DNA of 64,000 nucleotides from an uncultured Gammaproteobacteria bacterium (GTDB lineage: Bacteria; Patescibacteriota; Patescibacteriia; Magasanikbacterales; GWA2-37-8). Position numbers and translations under genes: made by a program. Positions 11,763 to 34,555 of this stretch are shown here, piece after piece (position 1 is the first letter of the stretch; every line of letters starts with the position of its first letter). The notes under the pieces are model-generated. The model was not told the DNA's origin. It worked only from the letters and a program-made list of their open reading frames with translations, and searched no databases. The stretch is from NCBI GenBank assembly GCA_964511375.1, contig CAZEEW010000001.1, positions 70,512 through 134,511 on the forward strand, written 5' to 3'.

Positions 11763-11935
11763 TTGACAATAATCACATCTTCCACCAGAATACATAGTTC
11801 TGTGTGGGTTATCCAGACAGCACAAAGAGAGAGCAAGGTAGAGAAACAAATCGGCATACTCGATCGATCATTAAGATCGAGAAGTGCGGAAAGATAGATA
11901 AAACCCAGTGCTTAAATGCGCTGGTTTTTTGTTTT
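11763..11935 (+). ncRNA. Candidate small transcription unit (sRNA or leader), function unknown
   Basis: TTGACA-N17-CAGAAT promoter-like element, internal hairpin CTCGATC-N9-GATCGAG, and terminator CCAGTGC-ttaaat-GCGCTGG followed by TTTTTTGTTTTT. No convincing ORF. Confidence 0.3.
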
Positions 11936-11985
11936 TAAAAAGTAAAAAATATGGTATAATGTTCAGGAAGAAACAACCAATCTAT

Positions 11986-14274
11986 ATGCACAATGACAAG
12001 ATAAAAAAAGTTATCAATTTTCTTTCGTTCTCATTGCTTTCTCTGGCTGTATTAGTAATGCCTTTTGTCGTGGATACCAGAGTGTTTAACGCTTTTAATA
12101 TTCCTAAACAAAATTTCTTTTTAGGAATGGTCTTGCTTTTGACTTTGTTGTTTCTCGTTAAATTTGCTCTAACCAAGACCATTTCTCTCCGGTTAACATT
12201 TTTAGATAAGATACTAGGAGTGTATGTTGTTCTTCTGTTGTTATCTGGAGCCTTTTCGGTCCAAAGACTAGATAGTTTTTGGGGCAGAAATGAGTATTTC
12301 ATTACCAACATCATTTTTCTGATCGGTTTGCTGTTGTATTACTATCTGTTTGTCAACACTGTTACAACCACAAAAAAATGGCATTTAATTTACGATGCAG
12401 TGGTCGTTTCTGGTGCCTTGGTCCAAATCCCTTATCTTTTTAAGGTCATATTTAAATGGTCTTTCTTACCCTTTCTAACTGAGGGAATGTGGAATTTGGT
12501 AGCAGAAAGTAATGCCGGGTTCGGTATTTTTGTAACTATAATCTTGGTTTTATCTTTAGGACAGTTGATCAAAAAGAAAACATCATACAATCGTAATCTT
12601 TTTTACATCATCGCTACTGTCTTAAGTTTGGCTACCTTGTCTACTATTAGCTTCTCGTTAATTTGGTGGTTGGTAGTAGCTGCAGTTGGATTGCTACTTT
12701 TACTCGGAATTAATTTTTTACAAGAAGCGAGGTTGGTAACCTTGACTGGCATGTTTCTGATTTTAGTTGCCGGCATCGCCACTTTAATTTTTGGTTCACC
12801 AAAGTTTCTGAAAGCCCCGTTGCCCCAAGAAGCGTTTTTAAGTCCGAGTGCCTCTTGGCAGGTGGCAGAAAACACAATGTTTAAGAATGTTAAAAACTTT
12901 GTGTTTGGTAGTGGACCAGGTACGTTTAGTGTGGATTTCTCTGAATTCCGTGAAGCAGGGTTTAATAACGATGCTCTGGCCTGGTCAGCTCGTTTCAGTA
13001 ATCCATTTAATACCATCTTTGCTTTTGTTGCCGAGAACGGTTTGGCTTTTTCCGCGCTATTTATAATTTTGACTCTTGTAATTTTAGGGTATGTTTCCGT
13101 TTACTGGATAAAGTTGCGAGGTGGGGCGTGGCATCAGAGCTTCGGAGAAGTGGTCGGCTACCGCACGGATTTACGGCTTGAACTTTTAGTTTCATCAATC
13201 GCCTGGGTTATGTTAACCACCACACTTTTCCTACATTTTTTCAAACCAGTTCTTTGGTTCTTGTGGTGGACACTTACGGCCTTGATTATAACTGGTTTAA
13301 GCTTTTATCGTGAAAATATTGTCCGCGAGAAGAAATGGGAAATTGAAAATCGTCCTGAGCACAGCTTGTCGTTTTCTTTCGCGGTCATAATCGTTGTTGC
13401 CCTAATAATTGTGACAAGTGTTTTTGGTGCCCGAATGTATAAAGGAGAACTGGTATATGCCGCTGCTTTACGCGAATCTAAAGTCAGTGAAGCTATCCAG
13501 CAATTAAATACCGCCATTAGGTTACGCCCGAGCACTGACGTGTATTATGCAGCGTTGGCACAGGCTTATTTATCCGAAGCAGTGGAAAAAGCCAAAGAAA
13601 AAGAACCACATCGTGAGGAAGTAGCGGCATCCCTCGGAAGTGCGGTCAATTCGGCGCGCGTCGCTACTGATCTTTCTCCGAAAATGGTTGGACTTTGGGA
13701 AAATTTAGGAACCATGTATGAGAACGCTGCTGTTATGGTGCCTGAGGCCTATACTTGGAGTCTAAAAGCCTGGACCTCAGCCAAGGTTCTAGAACCGACT
13801 AATCCAGTAATTGCCTGGCGACTTGGTCGGATTAATCTCGCTCTCGGTAATAACGAAGAGGCAGCCAAAAATTTTCAAGAAGCCATCAATTTAAAAGCTG
13901 ACCTGCTTGGTGCTTATCTGGGTTTAGCAATCGCCGAAGAGCGGTTAGAAAAAACTTCTGAAGCTTTGAAGACCTATGAAACTCTCCTGACCCTGAACCC
14001 ACAAAATCCCGAGGCCCTGTTTAATTATGGTCGAGTACTGTATAACCGCAACGCCAAAGGAGATCGAAAGGCGGCTGAACAAGCTTGGCTTTTAGCGATC
14101 AAGTTACAACCTAATTATTCTAATGCACTGTACAGTCTTGCTAATTACTATGAAACAAAAGGAGACAAGTCAATGGCTTTGAAATATTATTATGAGGTGC
14201 GCGATTTGAACCCAGATAATAAAGATATTCTGAAAAAGATTAAGTCATTAGCTCCTGCGCCTGAAAAAAAATAG
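11986..14274 (+). CDS. Polytopic membrane protein, O-antigen-ligase-like, with C-terminal TPR repeats
   Basis: More than 10 predicted TM helices followed by TPR-like repeats. The start is set after the TGGTATAAT extended -10 at 11952-11960; alternative starts are 11959 and 11908. Confidence 0.7.
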   Translation: MHNDKIKKVINFLSFSLLSLAVLVMPFVVDTRVFNAFNIPKQNFFLGMVLLLTLLFLVKFALTKTISLRLTFLDKILGVYVVLLLLSGAFSVQRLDSFWGRNEYFITNIIFLIGLLLYYYLFVNTVTTTKKWHLIYDAVVVSGALVQIPYLFKVIFKWSFLPFLTEGMWNLVAESNAGFGIFVTIILVLSLGQLIKKKTSYNRNLFYIIATVLSLATLSTISFSLIWWLVVAAVGLLLLLGINFLQEARLVTLTGMFLILVAGIATLIFGSPKFLKAPLPQEAFLSPSASWQVAENTMFKNVKNFVFGSGPGTFSVDFSEFREAGFNNDALAWSARFSNPFNTIFAFVAENGLAFSALFIILTLVILGYVSVYWIKLRGGAWHQSFGEVVGYRTDLRLELLVSSIAWVMLTTTLFLHFFKPVLWFLWWTLTALIITGLSFYRENIVREKKWEIENRPEHSLSFSFAVIIVVALIIVTSVFGARMYKGELVYAAALRESKVSEAIQQLNTAIRLRPSTDVYYAALAQAYLSEAVEKAKEKEPHREEVAASLGSAVNSARVATDLSPKMVGLWENLGTMYENAAVMVPEAYTWSLKAWTSAKVLEPTNPVIAWRLGRINLALGNNEEAAKNFQEAINLKADLLGAYLGLAIAEERLEKTSEALKTYETLLTLNPQNPEALFNYGRVLYNRNAKGDRKAAEQAWLLAIKLQPNYSNALYSLANYYETKGDKSMALKYYYEVRDLNPDNKDILKKIKSLAPAPEKK

Positions 14275-14275
14275 T

Positions 14276-14926
14276 ATGGTTCTAAAGAAATTTTTATTAA
14301 TATTTTTCTTAAGCACAACAACTATTTTTTGTTTTCCGGCCATTGGCAACACCACAATGACCTCGACTAATTATACAATTGAGTCAGATGTGGTTGGTTT
14401 CGGCGGTGATATTTCTAGTAGTACTGGAGATACGTATTCATTGTATGATACCGCCGGAGACAATGCTCCAGGCACTTCGACCAGCACAACTTACACTATT
14501 AATGCTGGTTTTCGGGCGATGGATGGTGGAAGTTCTATTAGTCTCACCATTGGTAACTCCTCGCTTTCTTTTGGAACTCTTTCCGCCGCCTCTGTCTCTT
14601 CAGTTTCTACAGACGTCGATGTTACTGTTACTTCAGATACTGGCTATTCTTTATCTGTTAGTAGCCAATCGGGAAGCCTTTGGACGACATTAACTGGCTC
14701 AGTTGATGCTGGGAGTCAGGAGTTCGGTGTTTTGGTAAGTGGGACTGATCAGGCGTTTGCTGGTACTGCCGCATTAAGCAATGGTTTAGTATTAGCGAGT
14801 AACAACTCGGCTATTACGAGTGAAACACGCACTACTGCTTTAAGTTTCCAGGTAGCCATGTCTAGCGCGACCGCATCAGGGTCATACACTAAAAGCATAA
14901 CTTTAACCGCCTCGGCTAATCCATAA
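14276..14926 (+). CDS. Secreted Ser/Thr-rich beta-rich protein (weakly WxL-like)
   Basis: Signal peptide and Ser/Thr-rich composition. The C-terminus YTKSITLTASANP is reminiscent of WxL-domain ends (weak, recalled). Confidence 0.6.
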   Translation: MVLKKFLLIFFLSTTTIFCFPAIGNTTMTSTNYTIESDVVGFGGDISSSTGDTYSLYDTAGDNAPGTSTSTTYTINAGFRAMDGGSSISLTIGNSSLSFGTLSAASVSSVSTDVDVTVTSDTGYSLSVSSQSGSLWTTLTGSVDAGSQEFGVLVSGTDQAFAGTAALSNGLVLASNNSAITSETRTTALSFQVAMSSATASGSYTKSITLTASANP

Positions 14927-14928
14927 AT

Positions 14929-15795
14929 ATGAAAAGGATTGGGTTAATAATTTTATTTTGCCTTTTTTTCATACCAGCCAATACTCAGGCTGTCAGTGTG
15001 AGTCCGGTTAGAACTGTTATTACAGTTGACCCCGGAGAAAGTAATACAGTGTCGATAAAGGTGGCCAATAATACTGATGCTGAGAGGAATTATGAACTCC
15101 GCACCCTGTCTTTTTCCGAGAGCGAGCAAGGGCAAGTGATTTATGGGTATGGAGTTCAGGAAGCAGAAAAATGGCTTAAACCAAGACAAGAAAAAATTGT
15201 TTTAAAAGTCAACGAGAGTAAAACGATAGACTTTTTAGTTAAGATCCCGAGCGGTGTACCCGCCGGTTCGTACTATTTAGCTTTGGCCGCTAAAGAATTG
15301 GGAAAGGAATCAGGTAATTTAGGGGTGGGGGCAGAAGTAGCGAGTCTGCTGATCCTGCAGGTTGCCGGAGAGGTTAAAGAGGAGCTGGTTGTCAAAGAAA
15401 TTAATTCTGAACGATCTATATATTTTTCTAAGCCCTGGAAATTAGAATTAAGCTTAAAAAATTTAACCCCAGTAGAAGTACCAGTTAAGGGCCGTGTGTA
15501 TTTAAAAGATCCAATGGGTGAACTGGTTGCGGCTAAAGACCTGGCCCTCGGCCGAGATATTTTGGCTAGATCGGAGCGGAGAATTCAGACTGTACTTTGG
15601 GAAAATGCTAGTCTGGTTTTACCAGGCAAATACCGTGTTAGTATTATTATTGACTACGGAAAAACCAATGGACAAATCGCTCAAGAAGTATTTGTTTGGT
15701 ATTTTCCAATATGGTTTGTCGTTGCCGGGCCAATAGTTATAATTTTACTGGTTAGTCTTACAATTTTAAAAAAGCGAAATAAAAAGAATGCGTAA
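14929..15795 (+). CDS. Cell-surface protein, DUF916/CscA-like architecture
   Basis: Signal peptide, two Ig-like-looking segments, and a C-terminal TM helix with a basic tail (LTILKKRNKKNA). Confidence 0.65.
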   Translation: MKRIGLIILFCLFFIPANTQAVSVSPVRTVITVDPGESNTVSIKVANNTDAERNYELRTLSFSESEQGQVIYGYGVQEAEKWLKPRQEKIVLKVNESKTIDFLVKIPSGVPAGSYYLALAAKELGKESGNLGVGAEVASLLILQVAGEVKEELVVKEINSERSIYFSKPWKLELSLKNLTPVEVPVKGRVYLKDPMGELVAAKDLALGRDILARSERRIQTVLWENASLVLPGKYRVSIIIDYGKTNGQIAQEVFVWYFPIWFVVAGPIVIILLVSLTILKKRNKKNA

Positions 15796-18700
15796 GTTTT
15801 GGTTAAAACTGTTTTTAGTTTTTTTAGTTGGGAGTGGAATTCTCACCGGCCTTTTATTTTTCGCCAGTACTTCTTTAAGCCAAAGTAGTGGCATTACTTT
15901 AGATGCTACTGTTCCGTCAACCGGTGGAGGAGGTGACCCGCCCAATCCAGGCGATACCACCCCGCCGACCATCTCGAACGTTGGGTCGAGTAGTATTTCT
16001 CAAACGGGCGCTGTTGTTACTTGGACAGCGACGGATAATACTTTGTTGACTGGTTGTTCGTTTGCTTATGGAGAAAGCTATGGCAGTTCGGTGACGCCAT
16101 CTAATAACGGCAGTAATTTTACGGCGTCATTATCTGGTTTGGTAGCCAATACATTATATAATTTTCGAATCACTTGCACTGATTCAAGTAGTAACTCAGC
16201 TCAACAAACTGGTAGTTTCCAAACTTTGCCGCTCCAAGACACCACCCCGCCGGTTATTTCTAACATTCTCGCCACACCAAGCGTGCGCAGCAGTGTTATA
16301 ACCTGGGACACCAACGAGGCGGCAGATAACCAGGTAGATTTTGGGCTAACCACTAGCTATGGGCAGAGCGTTAATGACGTTAATCTTCTTTTAAGCCATA
16401 GTCTAACTTTAAACGGACTCCTACCTGGTACATTGTATAATTACCGAGTGATTAGTGCTGACGCTAGTGGTAATCGGGCTACATCAGTGAACCAAACCTT
16501 CACTACTTTGAATGATACCGTCCCACCAGCTGAGGCGAGTAATTATACTTTAACCACGACCACCAACTCGATTGTATTAAATTGGACTAATCCTGTAGAT
16601 ACGGATTTTTCAAAAGTCATTTTAGTCCGGAAGATCGGCAGTCGCTCGAATACACCAACCGACGGCACAGTAATTTACGAGGGAGCGAATAGTACGAAAA
16701 CCGATACCAATATTCAAGTAAATGTAACTTATTTTTATACACTTTTCTCTTTTGACACCTCTAATAATCGTAGCAATGGTATTTTCTTGTCAGGCAAAAT
16801 TAACCCTCCGCAGAATGTTGAAGTGTGTACTAATGGCGTTGATGACGATGGTGACAACAAGATTGACTGTGCTGATTCAGATTGTTCACTTGCCGAGAAC
16901 TGTGTGCATCGGGATGAGATTTGTAATAACGGTGTAGATGATGATCGAGACACAAAAATTGATTGCGCTGACAGTGATTGCGCGAATAACATTGCCTGTC
17001 GTGTCCCTACTCCGGAAATATGTAATAACAGTGTAGACGACGATGAAGATGGAAAAGTCGATTGTGCAGATAATGATTGTTCTCAGTCTAGTTATTGCCA
17101 ACCAGCTGCAACAGAGATTTGTAATAATGGGCAAGACGACGACAATGACGGAATGATAGATTGTGCCGATAGTAATTGCAGCGCTTTTCCAGGTTGCGCT
17201 GAATCCCCGGGCGGAAGCAGTGCATGTAATAATGGAAGAGATGATGATGGGGATGCTAAAGTGGATTACCCGAATGATCCTGGCTGCACTTCAATAGATG
17301 ATAATGATGAATATAACCCGCCAGACGAAAATGTGCCATCGTCTTTAAGACTCGAGCTGTCTTCGTTGGAATTTTTTGCCGGTTTAAGAAATATTAGTAT
17401 ACCCTGGCGCAACAAAAGTATAGCTAGCCTTGCCAACTCCCGTGCTTACTTGCGTATTAACACTAATGCCTTCACAACTCGGCCAGAAAAAGTAACTTTT
17501 TATACGGCTTCGAATAAGTATGAATTGGCCCTAAGTAATAATTATTACTTGGTTGATTTTACTTTCCCCAAAGCCGGTGTCCATGACTCCTATTTAGAGT
17601 TAAATTACGGTGCTGGCCAAAACGATTCATTATCTTTTGTTTTAAACAGTTTGCCTGCTGGTCTTGTAACCGGTGATGAGAACAAACCTTTAGCTGGCGC
17701 ACGAGTTACAATAAGTCCGCGCGGTAGTGGAAGTTCATCAGCCGAAAATTATGGCCAAAACAGTCAATTAGTAACCGACGTCAATGGTCTTTATGGTTGG
17801 GTCATGCCGGTTGGTTTTTATGAACTAAAAATTACTAAAGAAGGATATTACGAAGAAACTAAAGTACTAAAAGTAGATAATAACATTGTTAATGAAAACA
17901 TTTCCTTAGTGTTGAAACCAAAAAAACTGGAAGATGTAATCGACCCCAAAGCTGGTTTAACTGAAAACATTTCAAACGTCGCAAAAAATATTGGTCAAAA
18001 AAGTAGTGCTACTCTTAAGAGAGGTATTAAATCGGCGGAAAATGTCGTTAAAGACATTGATCGAGCAAAAGAAAATCCGGAAGTGCAGAAGGTGACTAGA
18101 GAAGTGGTTGCTCCTGGTACGACGGCTGTAGTAGCAGTTGGTGCCGTACCGTTAATTTCTTGGGGAAGCATTTGGCCGTTGCTTCGCTTTATCTTTTTGC
18201 AGCCAACCCTTCTTTTGGGAAGAAAAAAACGTCAAGCTTGGGGCGTAGTTTACAATGCGTTAAACAAATTACCACTTGATCTGGTTATCGTGCGTCTTTT
18301 AGACGCACAAACTAAAAAAGTTTTGCAAACCAAAGTTACGGATAAACAAGGTCGCTTTATTTTTTGGGCTGAGCCAGGCGAATATCTGATTGAAGCGCAG
18401 AAAGGGTCGATGAAGTTTCCTTCCGCCCTTCTTAGTGGTTATGAACAAGATGGCCGGAAAGGAGATATTTACCATGGTGAGAAAATTGTGGTATCTCAAG
18501 AAGAGGCTAATATATCACCAAATATACCGCTTGATCCGGGCGGAGTGTTAAAAACCCCAACTCGTTTAAGGTGGGAAAAATTTGGTCGCGCCGTGCAAAA
18601 TATTTTGGCCTGGTTAGGTTTAATTGTAACAGCCGCATCACTATATATCACACTGGTGTGGTATATGTGGTTCCTCCTTGTTGTGCATGTGGTATTGTTC

Positions 18701-19036
18701 CTGCTCTTTAAACGTTTGGCAGTACCACCAAAACCAAGAAATTGGGGCATGGTTGCTGACGCCGACACCAAGTCACCGCTTCGGCAGGTAGTGGCGAGGC
18801 TCTTTAGCGCTCAATTTAACAAATTAGTAGCGACTGAAGTTACTGATCGTAGAGGTCGTTACAATTTCCTGGTCGGTGATGGGGAATATTATGTTACCTA
18901 TGATAAAGCTGAATACTTGCCACACAAAACTAATGTGATAGATACAAGCAGGGAAGAAGAAAAGATATTAGCTAAAAATATTGTTTTGAAAAAGAAAGAA
19001 AATACATTATCCACAATAGAAAAAACCAGCGAATAG
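15788..19036 (+). CDS. Giant surface protein: three FN3-like domains, Cys/Asp repeats, CarboxypepD_reg-like domains and TM segments
   Basis: 1082 aa with an N-terminal signal or anchor. FN3-like units begin TTPP(T/V)ISN. There are 5-6 CNNGxDDDxDxxxDCADxDC repeats and three beta-sandwich segments ending in EGYYE- or PGEY-type motifs. Confidence 0.8.
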   Translation: MRKFWLKLFLVFLVGSGILTGLLFFASTSLSQSSGITLDATVPSTGGGGDPPNPGDTTPPTISNVGSSSISQTGAVVTWTATDNTLLTGCSFAYGESYGSSVTPSNNGSNFTASLSGLVANTLYNFRITCTDSSSNSAQQTGSFQTLPLQDTTPPVISNILATPSVRSSVITWDTNEAADNQVDFGLTTSYGQSVNDVNLLLSHSLTLNGLLPGTLYNYRVISADASGNRATSVNQTFTTLNDTVPPAEASNYTLTTTTNSIVLNWTNPVDTDFSKVILVRKIGSRSNTPTDGTVIYEGANSTKTDTNIQVNVTYFYTLFSFDTSNNRSNGIFLSGKINPPQNVEVCTNGVDDDGDNKIDCADSDCSLAENCVHRDEICNNGVDDDRDTKIDCADSDCANNIACRVPTPEICNNSVDDDEDGKVDCADNDCSQSSYCQPAATEICNNGQDDDNDGMIDCADSNCSAFPGCAESPGGSSACNNGRDDDGDAKVDYPNDPGCTSIDDNDEYNPPDENVPSSLRLELSSLEFFAGLRNISIPWRNKSIASLANSRAYLRINTNAFTTRPEKVTFYTASNKYELALSNNYYLVDFTFPKAGVHDSYLELNYGAGQNDSLSFVLNSLPAGLVTGDENKPLAGARVTISPRGSGSSSAENYGQNSQLVTDVNGLYGWVMPVGFYELKITKEGYYEETKVLKVDNNIVNENISLVLKPKKLEDVIDPKAGLTENISNVAKNIGQKSSATLKRGIKSAENVVKDIDRAKENPEVQKVTREVVAPGTTAVVAVGAVPLISWGSIWPLLRFIFLQPTLLLGRKKRQAWGVVYNALNKLPLDLVIVRLLDAQTKKVLQTKVTDKQGRFIFWAEPGEYLIEAQKGSMKFPSALLSGYEQDGRKGDIYHGEKIVVSQEEANISPNIPLDPGGVLKTPTRLRWEKFGRAVQNILAWLGLIVTAASLYITLVWYMWFLLVVHVVLFLLFKRLAVPPKPRNWGMVADADTKSPLRQVVARLFSAQFNKLVATEVTDRRGRYNFLVGDGEYYVTYDKAEYLPHKTNVIDTSREEEKILAKNIVLKKKENTLSTIEKTSE
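16826..17310 (+). repeat. Coding tandem repeats CNNG(V/Q/R)DDDxDxK(I/V)DCAD(S/N)(D/N)C
   Basis: 5-6 units of about 31-33 aa are visible in the translation. Confidence 0.8.
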
Positions 19037-19065
19037 TAGTATAATAATATAGAATAGAAGAGATT

Positions 19066-22000
19066 ATGGAAGAGTTTGCGGAAAAGTTAAAAAAACAGGG
19101 AAGAACCCTATTTTTTAGCGTACTAGGGATATTTTTTGTTATGCTAACTTTTAGCATTATTTTGCAACAAGATTCAGCTGTCGAAGCAGCGACGCCCCCT
19201 ACTATTGTTTCTTACCAAGGCAAGCTCTTGGTAGGTGGGAGTTTGGCATCGAGCACTGTTAGCATGACTTTCCGTTTATATGATGATCCAACCGCTGGGA
19301 GTGAAAAATATAATTCTGGAGCGGTAAGTGTCACTCCGCAATCCGGTTTATTTTCGGTCGAACTAGGTGGTAATGATGGTGCGGTAATTGACCCAACGAT
19401 TTTTAAGGATAATGCTGCTTTGTATTTGCAGGTTACAATTGGTGCCGAAAACCTGTCGCCTAGAAAGAGGATTACCACTGCACCTTACGCTCTAAACGCT
19501 CTTTACTTGGATGGTCGAATTGCTACAAGTACACCAACCAGCACTAGTTATGTTCCGTTGGCAGATAATTCTGGAAATTTTAATTTCAACAAAGTAACCT
19601 CCACGGAGGTATATGTGAGTGCTACGAGTTCATTTAACAATGGGACAGCCTTCTTTGTTCCATTTGATGGCACCAGTATTTTGAGCCTTGGCAATATAAC
19701 ATCAAATTCAGGGCTGCTGAGTATTTTGGGTACGACTGGAGATGCTCCCACAATTTTAATGGGAACAGGTGATGTGTACGGGGATGAATTTAATGTTTCA
19801 ATCGGTGGAGGAAATAGTCCAAGTATTGCTTTAAACTATAATTCGGTCTCGAATAATGGTTTGGAAATCGGGGCTAATGCCAGCGGCGGCTACATTGAGA
19901 GTACCCCAAGTAGTACAACTCTGAAGTTTGTTTCCAATATTGCTGCAGGGCTAGATTCATACTCTGCCTTTGAATTCAGAACAAATAATACCTTGACGGG
20001 CGGTGTAAACAAATATTTAGCCGCCTGGTACAATAATACGACAAACGTTATGGTTTTAAGTCCAGAGGGTACCCTGCTTGTTAACGCCCTTGGTGTTGCG
20101 GGTGTAGGCATTGAAACCACTGCGCTTACATCTTTCGGTACTGTCTCAGTCGGGACTGATCTTACAATAGGTGGTATAAATTATACACCCTACTTTATTG
20201 ATTCAGTTGGTACAAATGGTTATTTGTGGAAGTCAGACGGTGATGGACGTGGAACTTGGGTTTCAACTTCGAGCCTTGGTATAATAGGCGACCTTCCTCC
20301 TGGATCGACTGGCCAAGTTTTTCGTTATGGCTCTTCCTCGTGGGAAGCAACTAGTAGTTTGTTTATCGCTGATTCAGGTTTTGTTGGTATAGGAACCACA
20401 ACACCTAATTTAAAATTGACCATCGCAAATGATGGTGGTATGCAAGCAATGGGAACCTATGGTAGTGGTACGCTTCTTGCGACCAGTACAGGTTCGCAAT
20501 TTATTTGGTATCCAAGAAAGAGTTCTTTAATGGCTGGTCACATGGAAAGTTCGTACGAATATTGGTCAGATGGAATGGTGGGTAGTTACACTGCTTCGTT
20601 CGGAAGAGATAACCGTACCGGTGCTGATTATGCTTTCGCAGCAGGCAGCGGCAACAACGCTAACGGAACAGCTGCGGTTGCCATTGGATACGGTAATCAG
20701 GCAAGCGCAGAGTATAGTTCTGCCTTTGGGTCAGGGAATTTAAGCTTAGGTAATTATGGTGCAACTATAGGCCGCAGTAATCGAACTGATGGTGAATATT
20801 CCATTGCTATGGGATACACTGTGCGTGCTAGTTCAACCAGCGCTTTTGCCTGGGGATACAACTATACATTAACGACAGACTACTCACTTTCTATCGGTCG
20901 TGACGATGCAGATTTTATCTTTACGCCAGGAGAAAGCACAGCAACAAATACTGTAGCATTTTCTACTGTCACTCAATTTAATAACAACGTCGCAAGTACT
21001 ACTGGTGCCCTTGCATATATTTTGAATGCACCGAATTTTGCTTCTACGAGTCCCGATCAATACATTTTGTCCTTGCGCTCCAATAACACCCCGGTCTTTT
21101 CAGTAGCTTCCAACGGCAATGTTCATGCCTTAGGTACGTTAAGTGCATCGAGCGCAACGGTTGGTACTCCAGGAACACCCGGTGACTTGGCCGAGCGCGT
21201 GGATATTGCCATAGATGATACAGCTGAAGCTGGAGACGTATTAACTGTAGATGAAATCAGTCCAGATACTTATCGTCGCACGTCTGGCTCCTATGATGCT
21301 TCCGTTTCTGGTGTTGTGTCCACAAACCCGACGATTGTTGTTGGTAATGGTAAAACAGATTACACGGCGGTAATGGCCATGGTTGGTCGTGTACCCGTTA
21401 AAGCAAGTGCTGAAAACGGGCCAATTAATCGAGGTGATTTATTAGTTAGTGCTTCCTTACCCGGTCATGCTATGCGCTATGACCCGACCAAGGATGATAC
21501 CCGTGTAGTCGGTGTGATTGGTGTGGCTCTTGATTCGCTACCTTCCGGCAGTGGTAAAATTATGGCCCTGATCCGCACGGGCTGGGTGTATAACCGCAAT
21601 CAAAGCATCCAAGAGATTAAATCTAATTTAGAAACTTTAGCTGCGGTACAAGGCTTGAGCTTGGGTAGTAACCCGAACAATTTAGAAGTGCAGAATACTG
21701 GAGGTGCTTTAAATTACACTAGTGGAAACCTAAATCTTCAAGGGTTTGCCATTTTAAATGTGGGTCGAGTTATAGGAGTAAATGGTCGGTGGATTATTGA
21801 TGGTAATGGTCGATTAATTTCTAAAGTACAAACTTCTGAAGGTGAAAAAACTCTGTATTCTGTAAATTCATATAGCGATGAATTAATTATCTCAGGTAGT
21901 GATAAATTAACTTCCGGTGAGGCGCGAATTAATTTTGACCAAGCAACCAGAGAGATAATAAATAGTGACGAAACTTTGAAAGTAAATGTTACTTTAACTT

Positions 22001-22479
22001 CCGGTGAGGCCACGGGTATATACGTAAAAGAAAAAAATGAGCAGGGCTTTGTGGTAAAAGAAACTGGTGCTGGACAGAGTAATGCCACTTTTGATTGGGT
22101 AGTAATTGCTAAGCGTAAGCCAGTACCAACTCCCGAACCTCCAGCTGAAGTGACTAACCCGCCTCCGTCTAGCGGTAATAACACAGAAACGCCAGCGAGT
22201 TCGAATGAAAGTTCTGGTGGTAACCAAGTCAACCCACCTACCACTGATCAAGGTGCTGGTGAGACTAGTGAAGCCCCACCAAGTACTGATGCCAACGCAA
22301 GTCCAGACACAAACGACAATACTTCAGACACTGCTAGCCCTACTACAGAAACAAGTTCAACTCCGCCGCCAGCGGACCCTGTTGAAACTACCCCAGCACT
22401 AACCCAAACCACAGAAGCGCCTGTCGAGACAGGTGAAACTACTCCAGGCAATGGAGGAGAAGCATTAGCCAGCCCTTGA
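19066..22479 (+). CDS. Giant fibre/adhesin-like surface protein with N-terminal anchor and Pro/Thr/Ser-rich C-terminal tail
   Basis: 1137 aa with an N-terminal TM helix (LFFSVLGIFFVMLTFSIIL). Carries YadA-head-like repeats (aa ~520-600) and a low-complexity P/T/S/E tail. Confidence 0.8.
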   Translation: MEEFAEKLKKQGRTLFFSVLGIFFVMLTFSIILQQDSAVEAATPPTIVSYQGKLLVGGSLASSTVSMTFRLYDDPTAGSEKYNSGAVSVTPQSGLFSVELGGNDGAVIDPTIFKDNAALYLQVTIGAENLSPRKRITTAPYALNALYLDGRIATSTPTSTSYVPLADNSGNFNFNKVTSTEVYVSATSSFNNGTAFFVPFDGTSILSLGNITSNSGLLSILGTTGDAPTILMGTGDVYGDEFNVSIGGGNSPSIALNYNSVSNNGLEIGANASGGYIESTPSSTTLKFVSNIAAGLDSYSAFEFRTNNTLTGGVNKYLAAWYNNTTNVMVLSPEGTLLVNALGVAGVGIETTALTSFGTVSVGTDLTIGGINYTPYFIDSVGTNGYLWKSDGDGRGTWVSTSSLGIIGDLPPGSTGQVFRYGSSSWEATSSLFIADSGFVGIGTTTPNLKLTIANDGGMQAMGTYGSGTLLATSTGSQFIWYPRKSSLMAGHMESSYEYWSDGMVGSYTASFGRDNRTGADYAFAAGSGNNANGTAAVAIGYGNQASAEYSSAFGSGNLSLGNYGATIGRSNRTDGEYSIAMGYTVRASSTSAFAWGYNYTLTTDYSLSIGRDDADFIFTPGESTATNTVAFSTVTQFNNNVASTTGALAYILNAPNFASTSPDQYILSLRSNNTPVFSVASNGNVHALGTLSASSATVGTPGTPGDLAERVDIAIDDTAEAGDVLTVDEISPDTYRRTSGSYDASVSGVVSTNPTIVVGNGKTDYTAVMAMVGRVPVKASAENGPINRGDLLVSASLPGHAMRYDPTKDDTRVVGVIGVALDSLPSGSGKIMALIRTGWVYNRNQSIQEIKSNLETLAAVQGLSLGSNPNNLEVQNTGGALNYTSGNLNLQGFAILNVGRVIGVNGRWIIDGNGRLISKVQTSEGEKTLYSVNSYSDELIISGSDKLTSGEARINFDQATREIINSDETLKVNVTLTSGEATGIYVKEKNEQGFVVKETGAGQSNATFDWVVIAKRKPVPTPEPPAEVTNPPPSSGNNTETPASSNESSGGNQVNPPTTDQGAGETSEAPPSTDANASPDTNDNTSDTASPTTETSSTPPPADPVETTPALTQTTEAPVETGETTPGNGGEALASP

Positions 22480-22516: not shown

Positions 22517-22590
22517 GGGCCCTTAGCGTAGCTGGCTAGCGCGCTTCCATGGCATGGAAGAGGTCACGAGTTCGAATCTCGTAGGGTCCA
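22517..22590 (+). tRNA. tRNA-Ala (anticodon GGC)
   Basis: Hand-folded cloverleaf: acceptor GGGCCCT/AGGGTCC with G3:U70, anticodon loop ATGGCAT, T-arm ACGAG-TTCGAAT-CTCGT. Confidence 0.9.
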
Positions 22591-22597
22591 CAAAAAT

Positions 22598-22619
22598 CCG
22601 GCACTTTGCCGGTTTTTTT
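22598..22619 (+). terminator. Intrinsic terminator after tRNA-Ala
   Basis: Hairpin CCGGCA-ctt-TGCCGG followed by T7. Confidence 0.85.
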
Positions 22620-22658: not shown

Positions 22659-23183
22659 ATGACAGATTTTTATCTTATTTTACAAATAATTCTACTTATA
22701 TTAGCCTTTTCAATGGTTGTTGCTACTTTGTCACTGGCGCCTTGGGTACCGACGAGAAATAGGGATTTACAAAGGGTGTTCAGATTAAGTAATCTGTCTC
22801 CGGGAGAAGTATTTTATGATCTAGGTAGCGGGACCGGGACTACGGTTTTTGCTGCGGCCAAAATCAAAGATGTAAAAGCAAGGGGTATTGAATTGGCTCT
22901 GCCGTTGTATGTATTTTCGGTAATTAAAAAGGTACTTTTAGGTAGTAAACAAGCAAGTTTCAAATGGAAATCCTTGTTTAAGGAAGATTTATCAGAAGCC
23001 GACGTTATTTACATTTTTGGTTTACCAAACAAATTAAAAGATAAATTAGTTAATAAATTTCAAAAAGAACTGAAATCTGGTAGTCGGGTGGTAAGTTACG
23101 TTTTTCCGATCAAAGGCCTCGAGCCAGTGATCGTCGATCACCCGACCGACCAAGATCTTTCTGTTTACGTATATAAATTTTAA
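22659..23183 (+). CDS. Class I SAM-dependent methyltransferase with N-terminal TM helix
   Basis: SAM-binding motif I: VFYDLGSGTGTTVF. Confidence 0.75.
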   Translation: MTDFYLILQIILLILAFSMVVATLSLAPWVPTRNRDLQRVFRLSNLSPGEVFYDLGSGTGTTVFAAAKIKDVKARGIELALPLYVFSVIKKVLLGSKQASFKWKSLFKEDLSEADVIYIFGLPNKLKDKLVNKFQKELKSGSRVVSYVFPIKGLEPVIVDHPTDQDLSVYVYKF

Positions 23184-26352: not shown

Positions 26353-26895
26353 TTAAAGACTGGGCCAGCCCTGGATTTTAATTTTAAACTCAAATGGTAT
26401 ATTCTCTTTTTGCAGCAGACGAGAAATTGGGGAGGAGACATTTTCTAACCAGCTAATTTCTTTAAGCTTGTCTTGGTAATCCAACAAAGCTTGACGGGTG
26501 GTGGCTGTCCCACTTAAGGACAAAGTAGAATCAGAACGGTTAACAGCAAGACTGTTTAGGGTAATATTCTGGGGCAAGTTACTGGACAGAACTAATAATT
26601 CTGGCACAATTCTTTTAAAACCTTTTCCAGCCTCATTGAATCTTTCTAGTTTACGATTTGTCTCTCTTACCTCTTGGTTATGTGCTGTAAATTCTTGGTT
26701 AACAACGATTGCGCTTTCCGACAAAGAATTAAAATCCTCTTGAAGTGTTAGCCAGCTCCAAACTAAACTAATTCCTAAGACAGCGGCAGTAATGAGCACA
26801 ATCTCCAGCATGTTTTTGACAAAGATAAAGCGCACCAGGTGTTCTAACTTAGCTTTTTTTGGGGGAGGTAATAGATTAACGGCTTGTCGAAACAT
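26353..26895 (-). CDS. pilN: Type IV pilus assembly protein PilN-like
   Basis: VNLLPPP near the N-terminus and a single TM helix. Position after pilM. Confidence 0.6.
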   Translation of the reverse strand: MFRQAVNLLPPPKKAKLEHLVRFIFVKNMLEIVLITAAVLGISLVWSWLTLQEDFNSLSESAIVVNQEFTAHNQEVRETNRKLERFNEAGKGFKRIVPELLVLSSNLPQNITLNSLAVNRSDSTLSLSGTATTRQALLDYQDKLKEISWLENVSSPISRLLQKENIPFEFKIKIQGWPSL

Positions 26896-26896
26896 A

Positions 26897-27985
26897 TTAT
26901 TCTTTACTCAAGAAAGGATTTTGTGCTGCTCGTAGCGCCAAACCAACTACCGAAGCCAAGGAAGAATCAGTGGTGTGGTTAGCAAATTCATCCGAAAATT
27001 TAAGTGTGGGCAGGAATGGTAAAATGCTTGTTTTTACCTTTAATTTTCTACCAATCGTCTCTGGCAAATTTTTTAAAGAAGCTGAACCACCACACAGGTT
27101 AACTTCTTTTATTGGATCAGTTTCAGAAAAGTGTTCTTGGTAAAAATTAACTGCCCGGCTAACCTCGGTAATTAAATTGTCAGTTAATTTTGTGACTACC
27201 TTAAGATATTTCGGATCTAGTTTAGAGTAAGTAACCCCTCGCTCAATTTTTAAATCCTCGGCTTTTTCGTAGTCAATCTTCATTTCTTGTGCAATTGCGG
27301 TTGTAAGTAATTCACCTGAGAAGTTCAGATGAGTACTAAACTTAACGCCCTCATGATCAAAAAAGATAAGGTTAGAGCGGGTGGCGCCTAAGTCTAAAAT
27401 CGCGCTCGCTTTTTGCTCGACTTGGTTATCTGGCAACAGGGCGCGGGCGATAGACAAAACCTCGATTTCTAAAGCCAGAGGGGTTAGCCCAACACTTTCT
27501 AAGAGATAAGTATATGAGTCGGCAATAATTTTAGGTACAGCACCTACCAATACTCGCGAATGGTTGTTGTTGCTGCCTCCTAACACCTTCCAATCAATAT
27601 AAGTTTCTTCGGCTTCAAATGGTAAATGCTTTTTCGCCTGGTACAAAACATCTTCTTCAGTTACCTGATCTGGGCTAGCTTCCAACGGAATGATTTTTAA
27701 AAAAGTTTTTGGTTCTGGCAGGTCAGCTACTACCCAGGGAGATTTGATTGCTTTATAACGTCCTTCCCGTCCTAGAAGGTAGAGAATTTTTTTCCGAACC
27801 ATTTCTGGCTGTTGGATCTCTCCGTTCACTATACAACCTGGGGAGAGAGGGGCGGTGCGTAGTTCTTTAACGTAATAATAATCATGGCCCCGTAAGGATT
27901 TACGTCGTTCTAATTGCATTAATTTTATTGACAGGTCACCAATGTTTAAGCCAAAGGCGCCGCAAAAAGGATTTTGCAAAAACAT
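26897..27985 (-). CDS. pilM: Type IV pilus assembly protein PilM
   Basis: Actin-like ATPase fold signature at the N-terminus (FGLNIGDLSIKLMQL), 362 aa. Confidence 0.8.
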   Translation of the reverse strand: MFLQNPFCGAFGLNIGDLSIKLMQLERRKSLRGHDYYYVKELRTAPLSPGCIVNGEIQQPEMVRKKILYLLGREGRYKAIKSPWVVADLPEPKTFLKIIPLEASPDQVTEEDVLYQAKKHLPFEAEETYIDWKVLGGSNNNHSRVLVGAVPKIIADSYTYLLESVGLTPLALEIEVLSIARALLPDNQVEQKASAILDLGATRSNLIFFDHEGVKFSTHLNFSGELLTTAIAQEMKIDYEKAEDLKIERGVTYSKLDPKYLKVVTKLTDNLITEVSRAVNFYQEHFSETDPIKEVNLCGGSASLKNLPETIGRKLKVKTSILPFLPTLKFSDEFANHTTDSSLASVVGLALRAAQNPFLSKE

Positions 27986-27987
27986 AA

Positions 27988-29136: not shown

Positions 29137-29138
29137 AA

Positions 29139-31285: not shown

Positions 31286-31288
31286 ATT

Positions 31289-31325
31289 AAAAAAAATAAT
31301 TAGCCGCCCTGATTTAAGAGCGGCT
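31289..31325 (-). terminator. Intrinsic terminator of the DNPH1-like gene
   Basis: On the minus strand: AGCCGC-N12-GCGGCT followed by a T-run (aattatttttttt). Confidence 0.7.
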
Positions 31326-32539: not shown

Positions 32540-32822
32540 ATGCGCTAGAATAACAGCTTTTTAATTATTTGTCAAATACATATTTACAATCTCATGCCTG
32601 GACTATTGCTAGGTATCCAAAAGTCTGCTATTATAAACGATCATCTTCAAAAAAAGAAGATGTTCAAATAATATTTACAAGCTCCTTAAAATTCGCAAAA
32701 AAGGCAAATTCAATCTGGCGAACCAACATTTTCTTTTAATTTTAGAAAAAAATGCTGGCTCGCCAGAAGGTCGTTCCTCACGGTGGGGGATGACTGGAAG
32801 GTAAGTTGGAAAGGAAAAAGAG

Positions 32823-34547: not shown

Positions 34548-34555
34548 GAGGGAGC

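What the first reader, a model, noticed from the sequence alone, without database searches (positions are those of the whole stretch)
14276..22479. Four-gene secreted-protein cluster resembling a Firmicute csc (WxL/DUF916) surface complex, expanded with two giant adhesins
The cluster runs in tight or overlapping order. First is a 216-aa Ser/Thr-rich secreted protein. Second is a 288-aa protein with a signal peptide, Ig-like segments and a C-terminal TM helix with a basic tail, which is the CscA/DUF916 architecture. Third is a 1082-aa FN3, Cys-repeat and CarboxypepD_reg protein with internal TM helices. Fourth is a 1137-aa fibre-like protein. It sits directly downstream of a large O-antigen-ligase-like/TPR membrane protein. 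A csc-like module has, to my knowledge, been described mainly in Gram-positive Firmicutes. Coupling it to 1000-aa adhesins in a putative epibiont could form a distinct attachment apparatus. The similarity is architectural and based on recalled motifs only.
Basis: inference. Interest (0 to 1): 0.5.

Follow-up and report, generated by a model that had tools for sequence, protein, structure and literature searches.

The report
Chaperone-assisted surface fibre operon in Patescibacteria
This conserved operon of an ultra-small (CPR/Patescibacteria) bacterium most likely builds a surface fibre from a small pilin and a membrane-anchored chaperone; the pilin is distantly related to the recently described CPR "Pam" pilus, and the chaperone to both that system's chaperones and the WxL-interacting protein of Gram-positive bacteria.

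Summary
The csc idea holds for gene 2 only. It is a WxLIP/CscA homologue: Pfam PF06030 just above its cut-off, family profile against E. faecium WxLIP (PDB 9i1y) E 1e-9, Foldseek E 4.5e-14, then PapD/FimC-type pilus chaperones. No gene has a WxL domain or an LPXTG motif.

Gene 1 is a small pilin-like protein. All 20 family members match NCBIfam "CPR-type pilus protein PamT" (best E 1e-17, far below the curated cut-off). Its C-terminal domain folds like donor-strand pilins. A conserved N-terminal extension has no confident fold in the monomer model.

The order gene 1, gene 2, gene 3 recurs across 80 GTDB species loci, mostly Magasanikbacteria and Uhrbacteria. Gene 4, a YadA-head-like fibre, and the upstream TM+TPR gene are facultative.

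Best reading: a minimal variant of the Pam pilus system (bioRxiv 2026). It has one short pilin, one membrane-anchored chaperone and a large membrane protein whose conserved N-terminal strand may anchor the fibre. Polymerisation is inferred, not shown. I rate it a new variant of a known kind, interest about 0.5. No paper in the searched library links WxLIP to CPR.

The parts
11763..11791 (+). Sigma-70-like promoter candidate (TTGACA-17-CAGAAT) upstream of the operon
   Evidence: Consensus scan only. It is the only 10-of-12 match on the + strand in the 232-nt gap before the TM+TPR gene. Weak evidence.
11908..14274 (+). Polytopic membrane protein with C-terminal TPR repeats. It is the first gene of the operon in the Magasanikbacteria-type clade. 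The real start is probably the ATG at 11959 or 11986.
   Evidence: TPR families at aa ~520-788; about 11-12 hydrophobic segments in aa 30-512. Orthologues are 709-796 aa and lie directly upstream of gene 1 in 23 of 66 GTDB loci with room. The ORF-list GTG start overlaps a hairpin at 11905-11924. No match to O-antigen ligase or any other membrane family.
14276..14926 (+). Gene 1: small secreted pilin-like subunit (PamT-like, 216 aa)
   Evidence: NCBIfam NF058579 PamT at E 2e-11. All 20 family members match PamT and 11 match Pam_pilin_C. The match persists without the signal peptide. Family size: 3029 representatives at E<=1e-3.
14357..14527 (+). Gene 1 aa 28-84: conserved N-terminal extension (MTSTNYTI..D..GG..Y.L.DT.G...STxYTINAGFRA), including the candidate linker/donor strand at aa ~70-82
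   Evidence: pLDDT below 50 in the monomer model, yet about as conserved as the folded domain. Alone it scores 28.6 bits against PamT HMM positions 28-80. In two-domain relatives the same segments flank an inserted ~130-aa domain. The donor-strand role is inferred.
14528..14923 (+). Gene 1 aa 85-216: beta-sandwich pilin domain carrying the family signature DG.V.AGSEEYG
14929..15795 (+). Gene 2: membrane-anchored two-domain chaperone of the WxLIP (DUF916) / PapD type, 288 aa
   Evidence: PF06030 28 bits against cut-off 27.3. Family profile reaches EfmWxLIP1 9i1y/9i25_C at E 1e-9. Model pLDDT 91.3. Foldseek: WxLIP E 4.5e-14, then CfaA, CsuC, EcpB, SafB, DraB, FimC, Caf1M and PapD. Found within 3 kb downstream of gene 1 in 78 of 80 loci.
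15265..15366 (+). Gene 2 aa 113-146: F1 strand, loop and G1-like strand (VASLLILQVAG), the candidate donor strand of the chaperone
   Evidence: This is the lowest-confidence block of domain 1 (pLDDT 78-82) followed by a conserved strand. It aligns with the EfmWxLIP1 segment that covers the hairpin reported to complete the WxL sandwich (PMC10599100). Inferred by homology.
15709..15789 (+). Gene 2 aa 261-287: C-terminal transmembrane helix with basic tail
   Evidence: Helix 261-287 in the model; hydrophobic segment 253-283; conserved in the family.
15788..19036 (+). Gene 3: 1082-aa multi-domain membrane protein, a conserved third component and candidate anchor or platform
   Evidence: fn3/Pur_ac_phosph_N, CarboxypepD_reg x3 and SdrD_B; acidic double-disulfide repeats x5. 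Follows gene 2 in 59 of 68 loci with room. The C-terminal TM-containing part is the most conserved.
15878..15916 (+). Gene 3 aa 31-43: conserved beta-strand-like motif directly after the signal peptide (SSGITLDATVPST), followed by a Gly/Pro-rich linker
   Evidence: Alignment of 54 orthologue N-termini shows I/V-x-V-x-L/A-T-V-P in the close clade and ANHxxxFTTPS in the Uhrbacteria-type clade. It is analogous to the extra N-terminal strand of PamR. The anchoring role is inferred.
18101..18730 (+). Gene 3 aa 772-981: hydrophobic segments 772-799 and 936-981 bracketing a CarboxypepD_reg-like domain
   Evidence: Hydropathy scan and Pfam stretches. Basic residues after each hydrophobic block (GRKKRQ, KRLAVPPKPR) suggest the last ~280 aa are partly cytoplasmic; this is inference from the positive-inside rule.
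19066..22479 (+). Gene 4: 1137-aa fibre-like protein with an N-terminal TM anchor, a YadA-head-like beta-roll (aa 512-650) and a Pro/Thr/Ser-rich tail (aa ~1018-1137). Facultative member.
   Evidence: YadA_head at 27 bits on the segment. PDB phmmer: CbpF 9u93 at E 1.3e-5, plus trimeric autotransporter heads. TM at 12-35; tail composition. Absent in L006/L007. A gene-4-like protein follows gene 3 in 25 of 44 loci with room. Conserved N-terminal A.PP.I(I/V)TYQGKLL.
22517..22591 (+). tRNA-Ala(GGC) at the end of the transcription unit
   Evidence: ARAGORN and Rfam.
22598..22612 (.). Bidirectional terminator-like hairpin (CCGGCA-CTT-TGCCGG) flanked by T-runs
   Evidence: Consensus scan, found on both strands.

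Best explanation
The cluster is an operon for a chaperone-assisted, donor-strand-type surface fibre. It is a minimal variant of the CPR 'Pam' pilus system, and its chaperone belongs to the same family as the WxL-interacting protein (CscA/DUF916) of Gram-positive bacteria.

Proposed steps:
1. All products are exported by Sec (signal peptides are shown).
2. Gene 1 is the subunit: an Ig-like pilin domain preceded by a conserved ~55-residue extension that has no stable fold of its own (domain shown; role inferred).
3. Gene 2 is tethered to the cytoplasmic membrane by its C-terminal helix. It binds newly exported gene-1 protein by lending its F1-G1 hairpin/G1 strand to the pilin domain, as PapD/FimC chaperones do and as reported for WxLIP (fold and homology shown; the interaction is inferred).
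4. The chaperone strand is then exchanged for a strand from the next component. That is either the linker strand of another gene-1 molecule, giving a homopolymeric thin fibre, or the conserved N-terminal strand of gene 3 (inferred).
5. Gene 3 has three FN3-like domains, five disulfide-knot repeats and a membrane-spanning C-terminal part. It serves as the stalk and membrane anchor, as proposed for PamR, so no outer-membrane usher is needed in this monoderm-type envelope (inferred).
6. Gene 4 is an optional, separately anchored, probably trimeric fibre adhesin. The upstream TM+TPR protein is a clade-specific accessory of unknown role.

The likely function is attachment to a host cell or surface.
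For: - Gene 2, sequence: PF06030 at its cut-off. The family profile retrieves actinobacterial DUF916 proteins at E 1e-18 to 1e-12 and EfmWxLIP1 at E 1e-9.
- Gene 2, fold: model pLDDT 91 with two beta-sandwiches and a TM helix. Foldseek gives WxLIP at 4.5e-14 and about 40 chaperone-usher chaperone chains at 1e-10 to 1e-7.
- Gene 1, sequence: PamT and Pam_pilin_C matches across the whole family.
- Gene 1, fold: fold searches are dominated by donor-strand pilins. The extension is conserved but unstructured in the monomer. Two-domain relatives keep the same N-terminal motif, linker and C-terminal domain.
- Link to pam-like operons: in Saccharibacteria and WWE3 loci the gene-2 family member sits between several Pam-like pilin genes, and matches the gene-2 family at hhalign probability 99.9, E 7e-34.
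- Synteny: the order gene 1, gene 2, gene 3 holds across 80 species loci.
- Gene 3: a conserved N-terminal strand follows its signal peptide.
- Published model: the Pam system has TM-anchored PapD-like chaperones, an FnIII anchor with an N-terminal strand, and a co-localised tail-fibre-like protein.
- Published precedent: WxLIP is reported to complete the WxL sandwich with a strand, and PDB 9i25 holds WxLIP bound to long WxL.
Against: - No complex was modelled, so the gene 1-gene 2, gene 1-gene 1 and gene 3-gene 1 contacts are all inferred.
- Gene 1 scores far below the curated cut-offs of both Pam models (43.7 against 240 bits; at best ~16 against 55 bits).
- Gene 1 resembles PamT most, and the Pam authors interpret PamT as a tip subunit without a donor strand. 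With only one pilin gene in the window, a true polymer is not guaranteed.
- Gene 1 lacks the nine-strand N-terminal domain and the disulfides of PamA/PamB.
- Gene 3 is much larger than PamR and built differently.
- No filament has been observed in this lineage.
Confidence: 0.6

Rival explanations
1. A static Csc/WxL-like cell-surface complex rather than a fibre. Gene 1 stays bound to the membrane-anchored gene-2 protein as a stable heterodimer, as proposed for WxL-WxLIP. The pair acts as a surface scaffold or receptor alongside the large proteins 3 and 4, with no strand exchange and no polymer.
For: Gene 2's closest solved relative is WxLIP, crystallised bound to a WxL protein. WxLIP is described as a stabilising partner, not a transient chaperone. 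There is only one small subunit gene in the window.
Against: No WxL domain, dual W-x-L motif or LPXTG protein is present. A gene-1 profile finds nothing in the PDB sequence set, which holds 9i25 chain C; I did not check that its WxL chains are in that copy. No 9i25 chain appears in the 50-60 matches listed by either fold search. Gene 1 instead matches Pam pilus models. Related loci carry two or three pilin paralogues per chaperone, as pilus operons do. The conserved, unfolded extension of gene 1 would have no role.
Confidence: 0.2
2. A capped stalk. Gene 1 does not polymerise. A single copy is loaded by the gene-2 chaperone onto the conserved N-terminal strand of gene 3, so the organelle is a gene-3 stalk of about 750 extracellular residues carrying one PamT-like tip domain.
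For: Gene 1 is most similar to PamT, the proposed tip subunit. Gene 3's N-terminal strand is conserved and followed by a flexible linker. Gene 3 co-occurs with genes 1 and 2 in 59 of 68 loci. No major two-domain pilin is in the window.
Against: Gene 1 retains the segment that corresponds to the inter-domain linker of two-domain relatives. Its extension is as conserved as its folded domain, which a pure acceptor subunit would not need. About 10 loci have a second, larger pilin gene between gene 1 and gene 2, which points to real fibres in close relatives.
Confidence: 0.15
3. Functionally unrelated surface proteins that are merely co-transcribed: generic Ig-like, FN3 and fibre adhesins with no assembly relationship.
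For: Ig-like folds are common, and several of the matches are weak.
Against: The gene 1-gene 2 pairing holds in 78 of 80 species loci and is adjacent in 59; gene 3 follows in 59 of 68. Translational coupling is seen in the 2-nt gap and the 8-nt overlap. The pairing of a pilin-like fold with a chaperone-like fold is specific.
Confidence: 0.05

Closest known systems
Pam pilus system of CPR bacteria (Ca. Mycosynbacter amalyticus; Troman et al., bioRxiv 10.64898/2026.03.03.709456; NCBIfam NF058579 PamT, NF058581 Pam pilin C-domain)
   Same: - It is also found in CPR bacteria.
- Sec-exported subunits with an Ig-like C-terminal domain; gene 1 gives significant though sub-threshold matches to both NCBIfam Pam models.
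- A PapD-like two-domain chaperone carrying a C-terminal TM helix.
- An FN3-containing membrane protein with an extra N-terminal strand.
- A co-localised tail-fibre-like protein.
- No usher.
   Different: - One short pilin (216 aa) without the nine-strand N-terminal domain and without cysteines, instead of PamA/B/E plus PamT.
- One chaperone instead of PamC plus PamD.
- The third component is 1082 aa, with Cys-knot repeats, CarboxypepD_reg domains and several TM segments, instead of the small RbmA-like PamR.
- An upstream TM+TPR gene, which the preprint does not mention.
- The lineage is Magasanikbacteria/Uhrbacteria-type rather than Saccharimonadia or Microgenomatia.
- Scores lie far below the curated family cut-offs.
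WxL / Csc cell-surface clusters of Firmicutes (CscA = WxLIP: DUF916 + DUF3324 + TM; Siezen 2006; Hassan et al. 2023, PMC10599100; PDB 9i1y, 9i25)
   Same: Gene 2 is a sequence and structure homologue of WxLIP with the same three-part architecture. WxLIP is reported to complete its partner's beta-sandwich with a strand, which is the mechanism proposed here.
   Different: - No WxL-domain proteins and no LPXTG protein.
- The DUF3324 HMM is not matched.
- Gene 2 is about 60 residues shorter than typical WxLIPs (337-365 aa).
- The partner is a Pam-type pilin-like protein.
- The organism is a CPR bacterium, not a Firmicute.
[quoted passage not shown]
   Same: The pilin-like fold of gene 1 and the chaperone fold of gene 2 are the top solved-structure classes after WxLIP. 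The proposed mechanism, donor-strand complementation and exchange, is the same.
   Different: There is no outer-membrane usher and no periplasm. The chaperone is membrane-tethered. No sequence similarity is detectable by HMM.
Chaperone-free donor-strand filaments (TasA and TasA-like fibres, archaeal threads, Pyrobaculum bundling pili, Pyrodictium cannulae)
   Different: Those systems lack a PapD-like chaperone, whereas here a chaperone gene is almost invariably adjacent.

Membership tests
Csc / WxL cell-surface cluster | CscA/WxLIP N-terminal DUF916 domain (Pfam PF06030) | tested here: met
   28.0 bits against gathering score 27.3, E 2.4e-6. Orthologues score 15-27 bits. The family profile reaches EfmWxLIP1 9i1y at E 1.1e-9, and Foldseek gives E 4.5e-14.
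Csc / WxL cell-surface cluster | Second WxLIP domain DUF3324 (PF11797) | tested here: inconclusive
   No Pfam hit at E<=1. The second-domain alignment to 9i1y scores only 3.9 bits. However, the Foldseek alignment spans 258-260 of about 265 residues, so both domains superpose.
Csc / WxL cell-surface cluster | C-terminal transmembrane helix on the WxLIP protein | tested here: met
   Helix at aa 261-287 in the model; hydrophobic segment 253-283.
Csc / WxL cell-surface cluster | At least two WxL-domain proteins (dual Trp-x-Leu motif) in the cluster | tested here: not met
   No WxL Pfam hit for genes 1, 3 or 4 at E<=1. There is no W.L motif in genes 1 and 4; gene 3 has them only inside TM segments. 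A gene-1 profile finds nothing in PDB sequences at E<=10.
Csc / WxL cell-surface cluster | Small LPXTG-anchored protein (CscD) | tested here: not met
   No LPxTG-like motif in genes 1-4.
Pam pilus system (CPR) | PamT equivalog (NF058579, cut-off 240 bits) | tested here: not met
   43.7 bits, E 2e-11. The mature protein scores 36 bits, E 4.6e-9. All 20 family members match, best E 9.8e-18. This is significant remote homology, not equivalog membership.
Pam pilus system (CPR) | [quoted passage not shown] | tested here: inconclusive
   Window gene 1 scores only 6.6-15.8 bits. Eleven of 20 family members match, best E 1.4e-7. The model of aa 85-216 is a confident beta-sandwich whose best matches are donor-strand pilins.
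Pam pilus system (CPR) | Nine-strand N-terminal beta-sandwich domain joined to the C-terminal domain by one linker strand (PamA/B/E) | tested here: not met
   Gene 1 has only ~55 residues before the C-terminal domain. Two-domain relatives carry an extra ~130-residue insert at that point.
Pam pilus system (CPR) | PapD/FimC-like chaperone with a C-terminal TM helix encoded next to the pilins | tested here: met
   Searches show fold and TM helix. Adjacency holds in 78 of 80 loci. The gene-2 family member sits inside Saccharibacteria pam-like operons. A direct comparison with PamC/PamD sequences was not possible.
Pam pilus system (CPR) | FnIII-containing anchor (PamR) with an extra N-terminal strand and a TM helix | tested here: inconclusive
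   Gene 3 has FN3-like domains, TM segments and a conserved post-signal strand. It is about three times larger, has other domains, and was not compared with PamR itself.
Pam pilus system (CPR) | Assembled extracellular filament held together by donor-strand exchange | not testable with these tools
   This needs multimer modelling, cryo-EM or biochemistry.
Chaperone-usher pili | Outer-membrane usher | tested here: not met
   No usher family hit in any cluster gene.
O-antigen ligase (Wzy_C/WaaL) family, for the upstream TM+TPR gene | Wzy_C domain or similarity to WaaL | tested here: not met
   Pfam finds nothing in the TM part of four orthologues at E<=10. NCBIfam finds only TPR families. A 20-sequence profile has no PDB hit. 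hhalign against E. coli WaaL gives probability 0.1.
Trimeric autotransporter adhesins, for gene 4 | YadA-like head repeats plus C-terminal beta-barrel anchor | tested here: not met
   Head repeats are present: 27 bits on the segment, and CbpF at E 1.3e-5. There is no anchor-domain hit; the C-terminus is a Pro/Thr/Ser-rich tail and the only TM segment is N-terminal.

The most novel reading that the evidence does not exclude
The gene 1-gene 2-gene 3 module would show that CPR Pam pili and the WxL/Csc clusters of Gram-positive bacteria are branches of one usher-less, membrane-tethered chaperone/donor-strand machinery of monoderm envelopes, itself related to Gram-negative chaperone-usher systems. 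Gene 3 would then define a new class of membrane anchor or platform. By implication, WxL proteins might also be assembled by strand exchange rather than simply held on peptidoglycan.
Probability: 0.3. Interest if true: 0.7.

Novelty: new variant of a known kind. Interest (0 to 1): 0.5.

Why it matters
How CPR/Patescibacteria attach to their hosts is largely unknown. Apart from type IV pili, the Pam pilus is the only dedicated fibre system described, it dates from a 2026 preprint, and it was reported mainly for Saccharimonadia and Microgenomatia.

This cluster suggests three things:
- A stripped-down relative (one short pilin, one chaperone, one large membrane protein) is a conserved operon in Magasanikbacteria- and Uhrbacteria-type lineages. 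The pilin superfamily has about 3000 representative clusters at 50% identity in metagenomes.
- The chaperone family is demonstrably the DUF916/WxLIP family. That offers an evolutionary bridge between CPR pili, Gram-positive WxL clusters and Gram-negative chaperone-usher pili. No paper in the searched library makes this link.
- It gives concrete, testable predictions about strand-exchange partners.

Tried and rejected
- **O-antigen-ligase identity of the upstream gene.** Pfam on the TM parts of four orthologues, a 20-sequence profile against PDB and hhalign against E. coli WaaL were all negative. From memory, the loop motif GSGLGTF...NQPxNTxFAxLAEGG loosely resembles the Wzy_C signature, but that is not a test.
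- **WxL identity of gene 1.** There is no Pfam hit and no PDB sequence hit with the family profile. No WxL chain appears in the listed fold matches. I looked for WxL neighbours of the actinobacterial DUF916 hits to obtain WxL sequences for a profile comparison, but those loci have none.
- **Direct comparison with PamC, PamD, PamR and PamT of M. amalyticus.** The single genome-contig scan went to the gene-1 survey, and NCBIfam appears to hold no Pam chaperone model that these proteins match.
- **The search for related loci with the 20- and 15-sequence alignments.** It failed because no stretch was conserved enough. A 6-sequence alignment worked.
- **PHROGs.** It gave nothing useful for genes 1-4.
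- **My first impression that the N-terminal extension of gene 1 is the most conserved part.** Over 49 orthologues it is about as conserved as the folded domain, not more.
- **Gene 4 as a donor-strand partner.** It has a conserved N-terminal TYQGKLL strand. However, it has no pilin domain and is absent from many loci, so I treat it as an accessory.

Full report
**Observation**

- gene 1: 14276-14926, 216 aa
- gene 2: 14929-15795, 288 aa
- gene 3: 15788-19036, 1082 aa
- gene 4: 19066-22479, 1137 aa

All are on the + strand, separated by a 2-nt gap, an 8-nt overlap and a 29-nt gap. A 788-aa ORF ends one base before gene 1.

A promoter-like site lies at 11763-11791. A tRNA-Ala (22517-22591) and a bidirectional hairpin terminator (22598-22612) close the unit.

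The described features were checked by translation, hydropathy, HMMs and models, and all hold except the label "O-antigen-ligase-like". The upstream protein has about a dozen hydrophobic segments and C-terminal TPRs. Its membrane part matches no family: nothing in Pfam for four orthologues, nothing in PDB for a 20-sequence profile, and probability 0.1 against E. coli WaaL.

**Gene 2 is a WxLIP/CscA-type, PapD-like chaperone with a membrane tether**

- Pfam PF06030 (WxLIP_PGBD, formerly DUF916) is matched at 28.0 bits against a gathering score of 27.3. Several orthologues match it independently.
- A profile of 11 orthologues finds 114 relatives. Most are CPR proteins of 360-560 aa. The weakest significant hits are actinobacterial proteins named DUF916 or WxL peptidoglycan-domain proteins, at E 1e-18 to 1e-12.
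- A 51-sequence profile hits the solved E. faecium WxLIP (9i1y, 9i25_C) at E 1.1e-9.
- The AlphaFold2 model is confident (mean pLDDT 91.3). It shows two beta-sandwich domains followed by a helix at aa 261-287.
- Foldseek against PDB ranks WxLIP first (E 4.5e-14, about 260 aligned columns). The periplasmic chaperones of chaperone-usher pili follow at E 1e-10 to 1e-7: CfaA, CsuC, EcpB, YadV, SafB, DraB, FimC, Caf1M and PapD.

**Gene 1 is a pilin-like subunit of the CPR Pam family**

- NCBIfam gives "CPR-type pilus protein PamT" at E 2e-11, far below the equivalog cut-off of 240 bits (43.7 bits).
- All 20 collected family members match PamT (best E 9.8e-18), and 11 match the Pam pilin C-terminal domain model (best E 1.4e-7).
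- The match is not a signal-peptide artefact. The mature protein still scores E 4.6e-9, and the 57-residue N-terminal extension alone scores 28.6 bits.
- In the AlphaFold2 model, aa 85-216 form a beta-sandwich with pLDDT above 90, while aa 24-82 fall below 50.
- Over 49 orthologues that extension is about as conserved as the folded domain: top-residue frequency 0.49 against 0.53.
- An exhaustive profile search finds 3029 representatives at E<=1e-3 and 165 at E<=1e-30, in size classes of about 210, 300 and 345-367 aa.
- Aligning the classes shows that the larger proteins share the N-terminal motif, the segment just before the C-terminal domain (GYKLQGGFQAME, against TYTINAGFRAMDG in gene 1) and the C-terminal domain itself. 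They add a ~130-residue insert in between.
- Gene 1 is thus a two-domain Pam-type pilin minus its N-terminal domain. By position, it retains the inter-domain linker that serves as the donor strand in PamA and PamB.

**The literature context**

Troman et al. (bioRxiv 10.64898/2026.03.03.709456) solved two filaments of the CPR parasite Mycosynbacter amalyticus and defined the pam operon. Its components are:
- pilins PamA, PamB and PamE: an N-terminal sandwich, a donated linker strand and a truncated Ig-like C-terminal domain;
- the single-domain PamT;
- the PapD/FimC-like chaperones PamC and PamD, which unusually carry a C-terminal TM helix;
- PamR, an FnIII protein with an extra N-terminal strand and a TM helix, proposed to terminate and anchor the pilus;
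- a co-localised tail-fibre-like protein.

The authors report Pam pilins mainly in Saccharimonadia and Microgenomatia. The preprint does not mention WxL, DUF916 or TPR.

Hassan et al. (PMC10599100) describe WxLIP as DUF916 plus DUF3324 plus a TM helix. [quoted passage not shown] PDB 9i25 is titled WxLIP bound to long WxL.

No paper in the searchable library combines DUF916 or WxL with Patescibacteria or candidate phyla radiation.

**Conservation**

Exact-protein look-ups show the same block in several related metagenomic contigs: TM+TPR, gene 1, gene 2, gene 3, then gene 4. Gene 4 is missing from a 963-kb genome, where YchF directly follows gene 3.

A scan of one genome per GTDB species returned 80 loci. 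By record title they are mostly Candidatus Magasanikbacteria and Uhrbacteria, with some Falkow-, Woyke-, WWE3 and Saccharibacteria entries. Many MAGs are titled "uncultured Gammaproteobacteria" but share the synteny.

| Neighbour of gene 1 | Loci with it | Loci assessed |
|---|---|---|
| Gene-2 homologue within 3 kb downstream | 78 | 80 |
| Gene-2 homologue adjacent (gap under 150 nt) | 59 | 80 |
| Gene-3 homologue following gene 2 | 59 | 68 with room |
| Gene-4-like giant protein (about 1000-2900 aa) following | 25 | 44 with room |
| TM+TPR gene directly upstream | 23 | 66 with room |

About ten loci carry a second, larger pilin-like gene between gene 1 and the chaperone.

In the Saccharibacteria and WWE3 loci, three pilin-like genes surround a gene-2 homologue and gene 3 is absent, which is a canonical pam-like layout. 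That chaperone matches the gene-2 family at hhalign probability 99.9, E 7e-34.

The core is therefore gene 1, gene 2 and usually gene 3. Gene 4 and the TM+TPR gene are lineage-specific additions.

**Genes 3 and 4**

Gene 3 has, in order:
- a signal peptide;
- a short conserved strand (SSGITLDATVPST), which reads I/V-x-V-x-L-T-V-P across the close clade and ANHxxxFTTPS in the Uhrbacteria-type clade, followed by a Gly/Pro- or Cys-rich linker;
- three FN3-like domains;
- five acidic double-disulfide repeats;
- a CarboxypepD_reg domain;
- hydrophobic segments at 772-799 and 936-981, interleaved with two more CarboxypepD_reg-like domains.

The TM-containing C-terminal third is its most conserved part. 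Basic residues after each hydrophobic block suggest that part of the C-terminus is cytoplasmic; this is inference.

Gene 4 has a basic N-terminus, one TM segment and a conserved A.PP.I(I/V)TYQGKLL motif. It also has a YadA-head-like beta-roll at aa 512-650 (CbpF at E 1.3e-5; YadA_head at 27 bits on the segment) and a Pro/Thr/Ser-rich tail. It has no autotransporter anchor.

**Mechanism proposed**

Shown:
- the fold and family of gene 2;
- the family and domain fold of gene 1;
- the signal peptides and TM helices;
- the conserved gene order.

Inferred:
- Gene 2, tethered to the membrane, caps the groove of newly exported gene 1 with its F1-G1 hairpin and G1 strand (aa 113-146, VASLLILQVAG).
- That strand is then exchanged for the linker strand of another gene-1 subunit, giving a homopolymeric fibre, or for the N-terminal strand of gene 3, which anchors the structure.
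- Gene 4 acts as an independent trimeric adhesin.

I put about 0.6 on this donor-strand assembly reading as a whole. Within it, the number of gene-1 subunits per structure is open. Gene 1 resembles PamT most, and the Pam authors regard PamT as a tip subunit without a donor strand, so a one-subunit cap on a gene-3 stalk is a serious alternative (0.15). A static WxL-like heterodimer is a further alternative (0.2). Unrelated co-transcribed proteins are unlikely (0.05).

**Comparison and membership**

- Against the csc/WxL cluster, the WxLIP component is met. The defining WxL proteins and the LPXTG protein are not, so it should not be filed as a csc cluster.
- Against the Pam system, the TM-anchored chaperone is met. 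The pilin models are matched only below their cut-offs, the N-terminal pilin domain is absent, and the anchor differs. It is a divergent variant, not an orthologous pam operon.
- Against chaperone-usher pili, the two folds agree but there is no usher.

**Novelty and verdict**

I rate this a new variant of a known, very recently described kind, with interest about 0.5. A CPR specialist who knows the Pam preprint would see the pilin-chaperone pair as an expected extension. Three points go beyond it:
- the minimal one-pilin composition;
- the conserved giant membrane partner and the TM+TPR gene;
- the sequence-level identification of the chaperone family with WxLIP/DUF916, which suggests a common origin for CPR pili and Gram-positive WxL clusters.

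**Limits**

- No multimer models were made.
- There was no direct comparison with the M. amalyticus proteins.
- The fold scores for gene 1 are weak.
- Taxonomy rests on record titles.

Noticed in passing
window 32800-34600 (also 31000-31299): A ~1.8-kb island of 55-69% G+C sits in a ~40% G+C genome. Long overlapping ORFs lie on both strands (for example 32823-33986 +, 387 aa; 32778-33758 -). There is no Rfam match at gathering score or at E<=1. Possible explanations are foreign DNA, an assembly chimera or an unknown structured RNA. It remains unexplained.
   Followed up: partly
window 26353-30860, minus strand: A type IV pilus assembly gene set lies 4-8 kb downstream of the cluster: PilN-like, PilM, PilC/T2SSF and PilB/T2SSE. 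The same neighbourhood occurs in the related 963-kb genome (L006). The organism therefore encodes two different fibre systems side by side.
   Followed up: partly
window 11905-11986: The ORF-list GTG start of the TM+TPR gene (11908) overlaps a terminator-like hairpin at 11905-11924. Orthologues are about 26 residues shorter. The true start is probably the ATG at 11959 or 11986.
   Followed up: partly
loci L014, L017, L021, L022, L025-L027, L030, L031, L049 and others: About 27 of the 80 GTDB loci come from MAGs titled 'uncultured Gammaproteobacteria bacterium'; one is titled Udaeobacter and one Pseudobdellovibrionaceae. They carry the same Patescibacteria-type synteny, and L049 is an 886-kb complete chromosome. 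The record titles look like placeholders or mislabels.
   Followed up: no
window 19066-19230 and gene-4-like genes in about 35 loci: The giant fibre-like proteins share a conserved N-terminus: a basic tail, one TM helix, an Ala-rich site, then A.PP.I(I/V)TYQGKLL. Their lengths vary from about 1000 to 2900 aa. The role of this strand-like motif is unknown.
   Followed up: partly
proteins P0029, P0058, P0061, P0073, P0096 and others: Many CPR members of the gene-2 (DUF916-like) family are 520-580 aa long and carry a C-terminal LytR_C domain (PF13399) after the TM helix. This suggests a cell-envelope-attached subclass of these chaperone-like proteins.
   Followed up: no
L010 (Parcubacteria contig RFLG01000003.1) 154-3457: Three consecutive gene-2-like (DUF916-type) paralogues of 357, 339 and 387 aa occur with no detectable gene-1-like pilin on the contig. 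They are followed by FGE-sulfatase, glycosyltransferase and dockerin proteins.
   Followed up: no
window 22659-23183: A DOT1-like / protein-lysine methyltransferase-like gene (174 aa) lies between the tRNA-Ala and ychF. It is present in some relatives (L001, L004) and replaced by small ORFs in L003.
   Followed up: no
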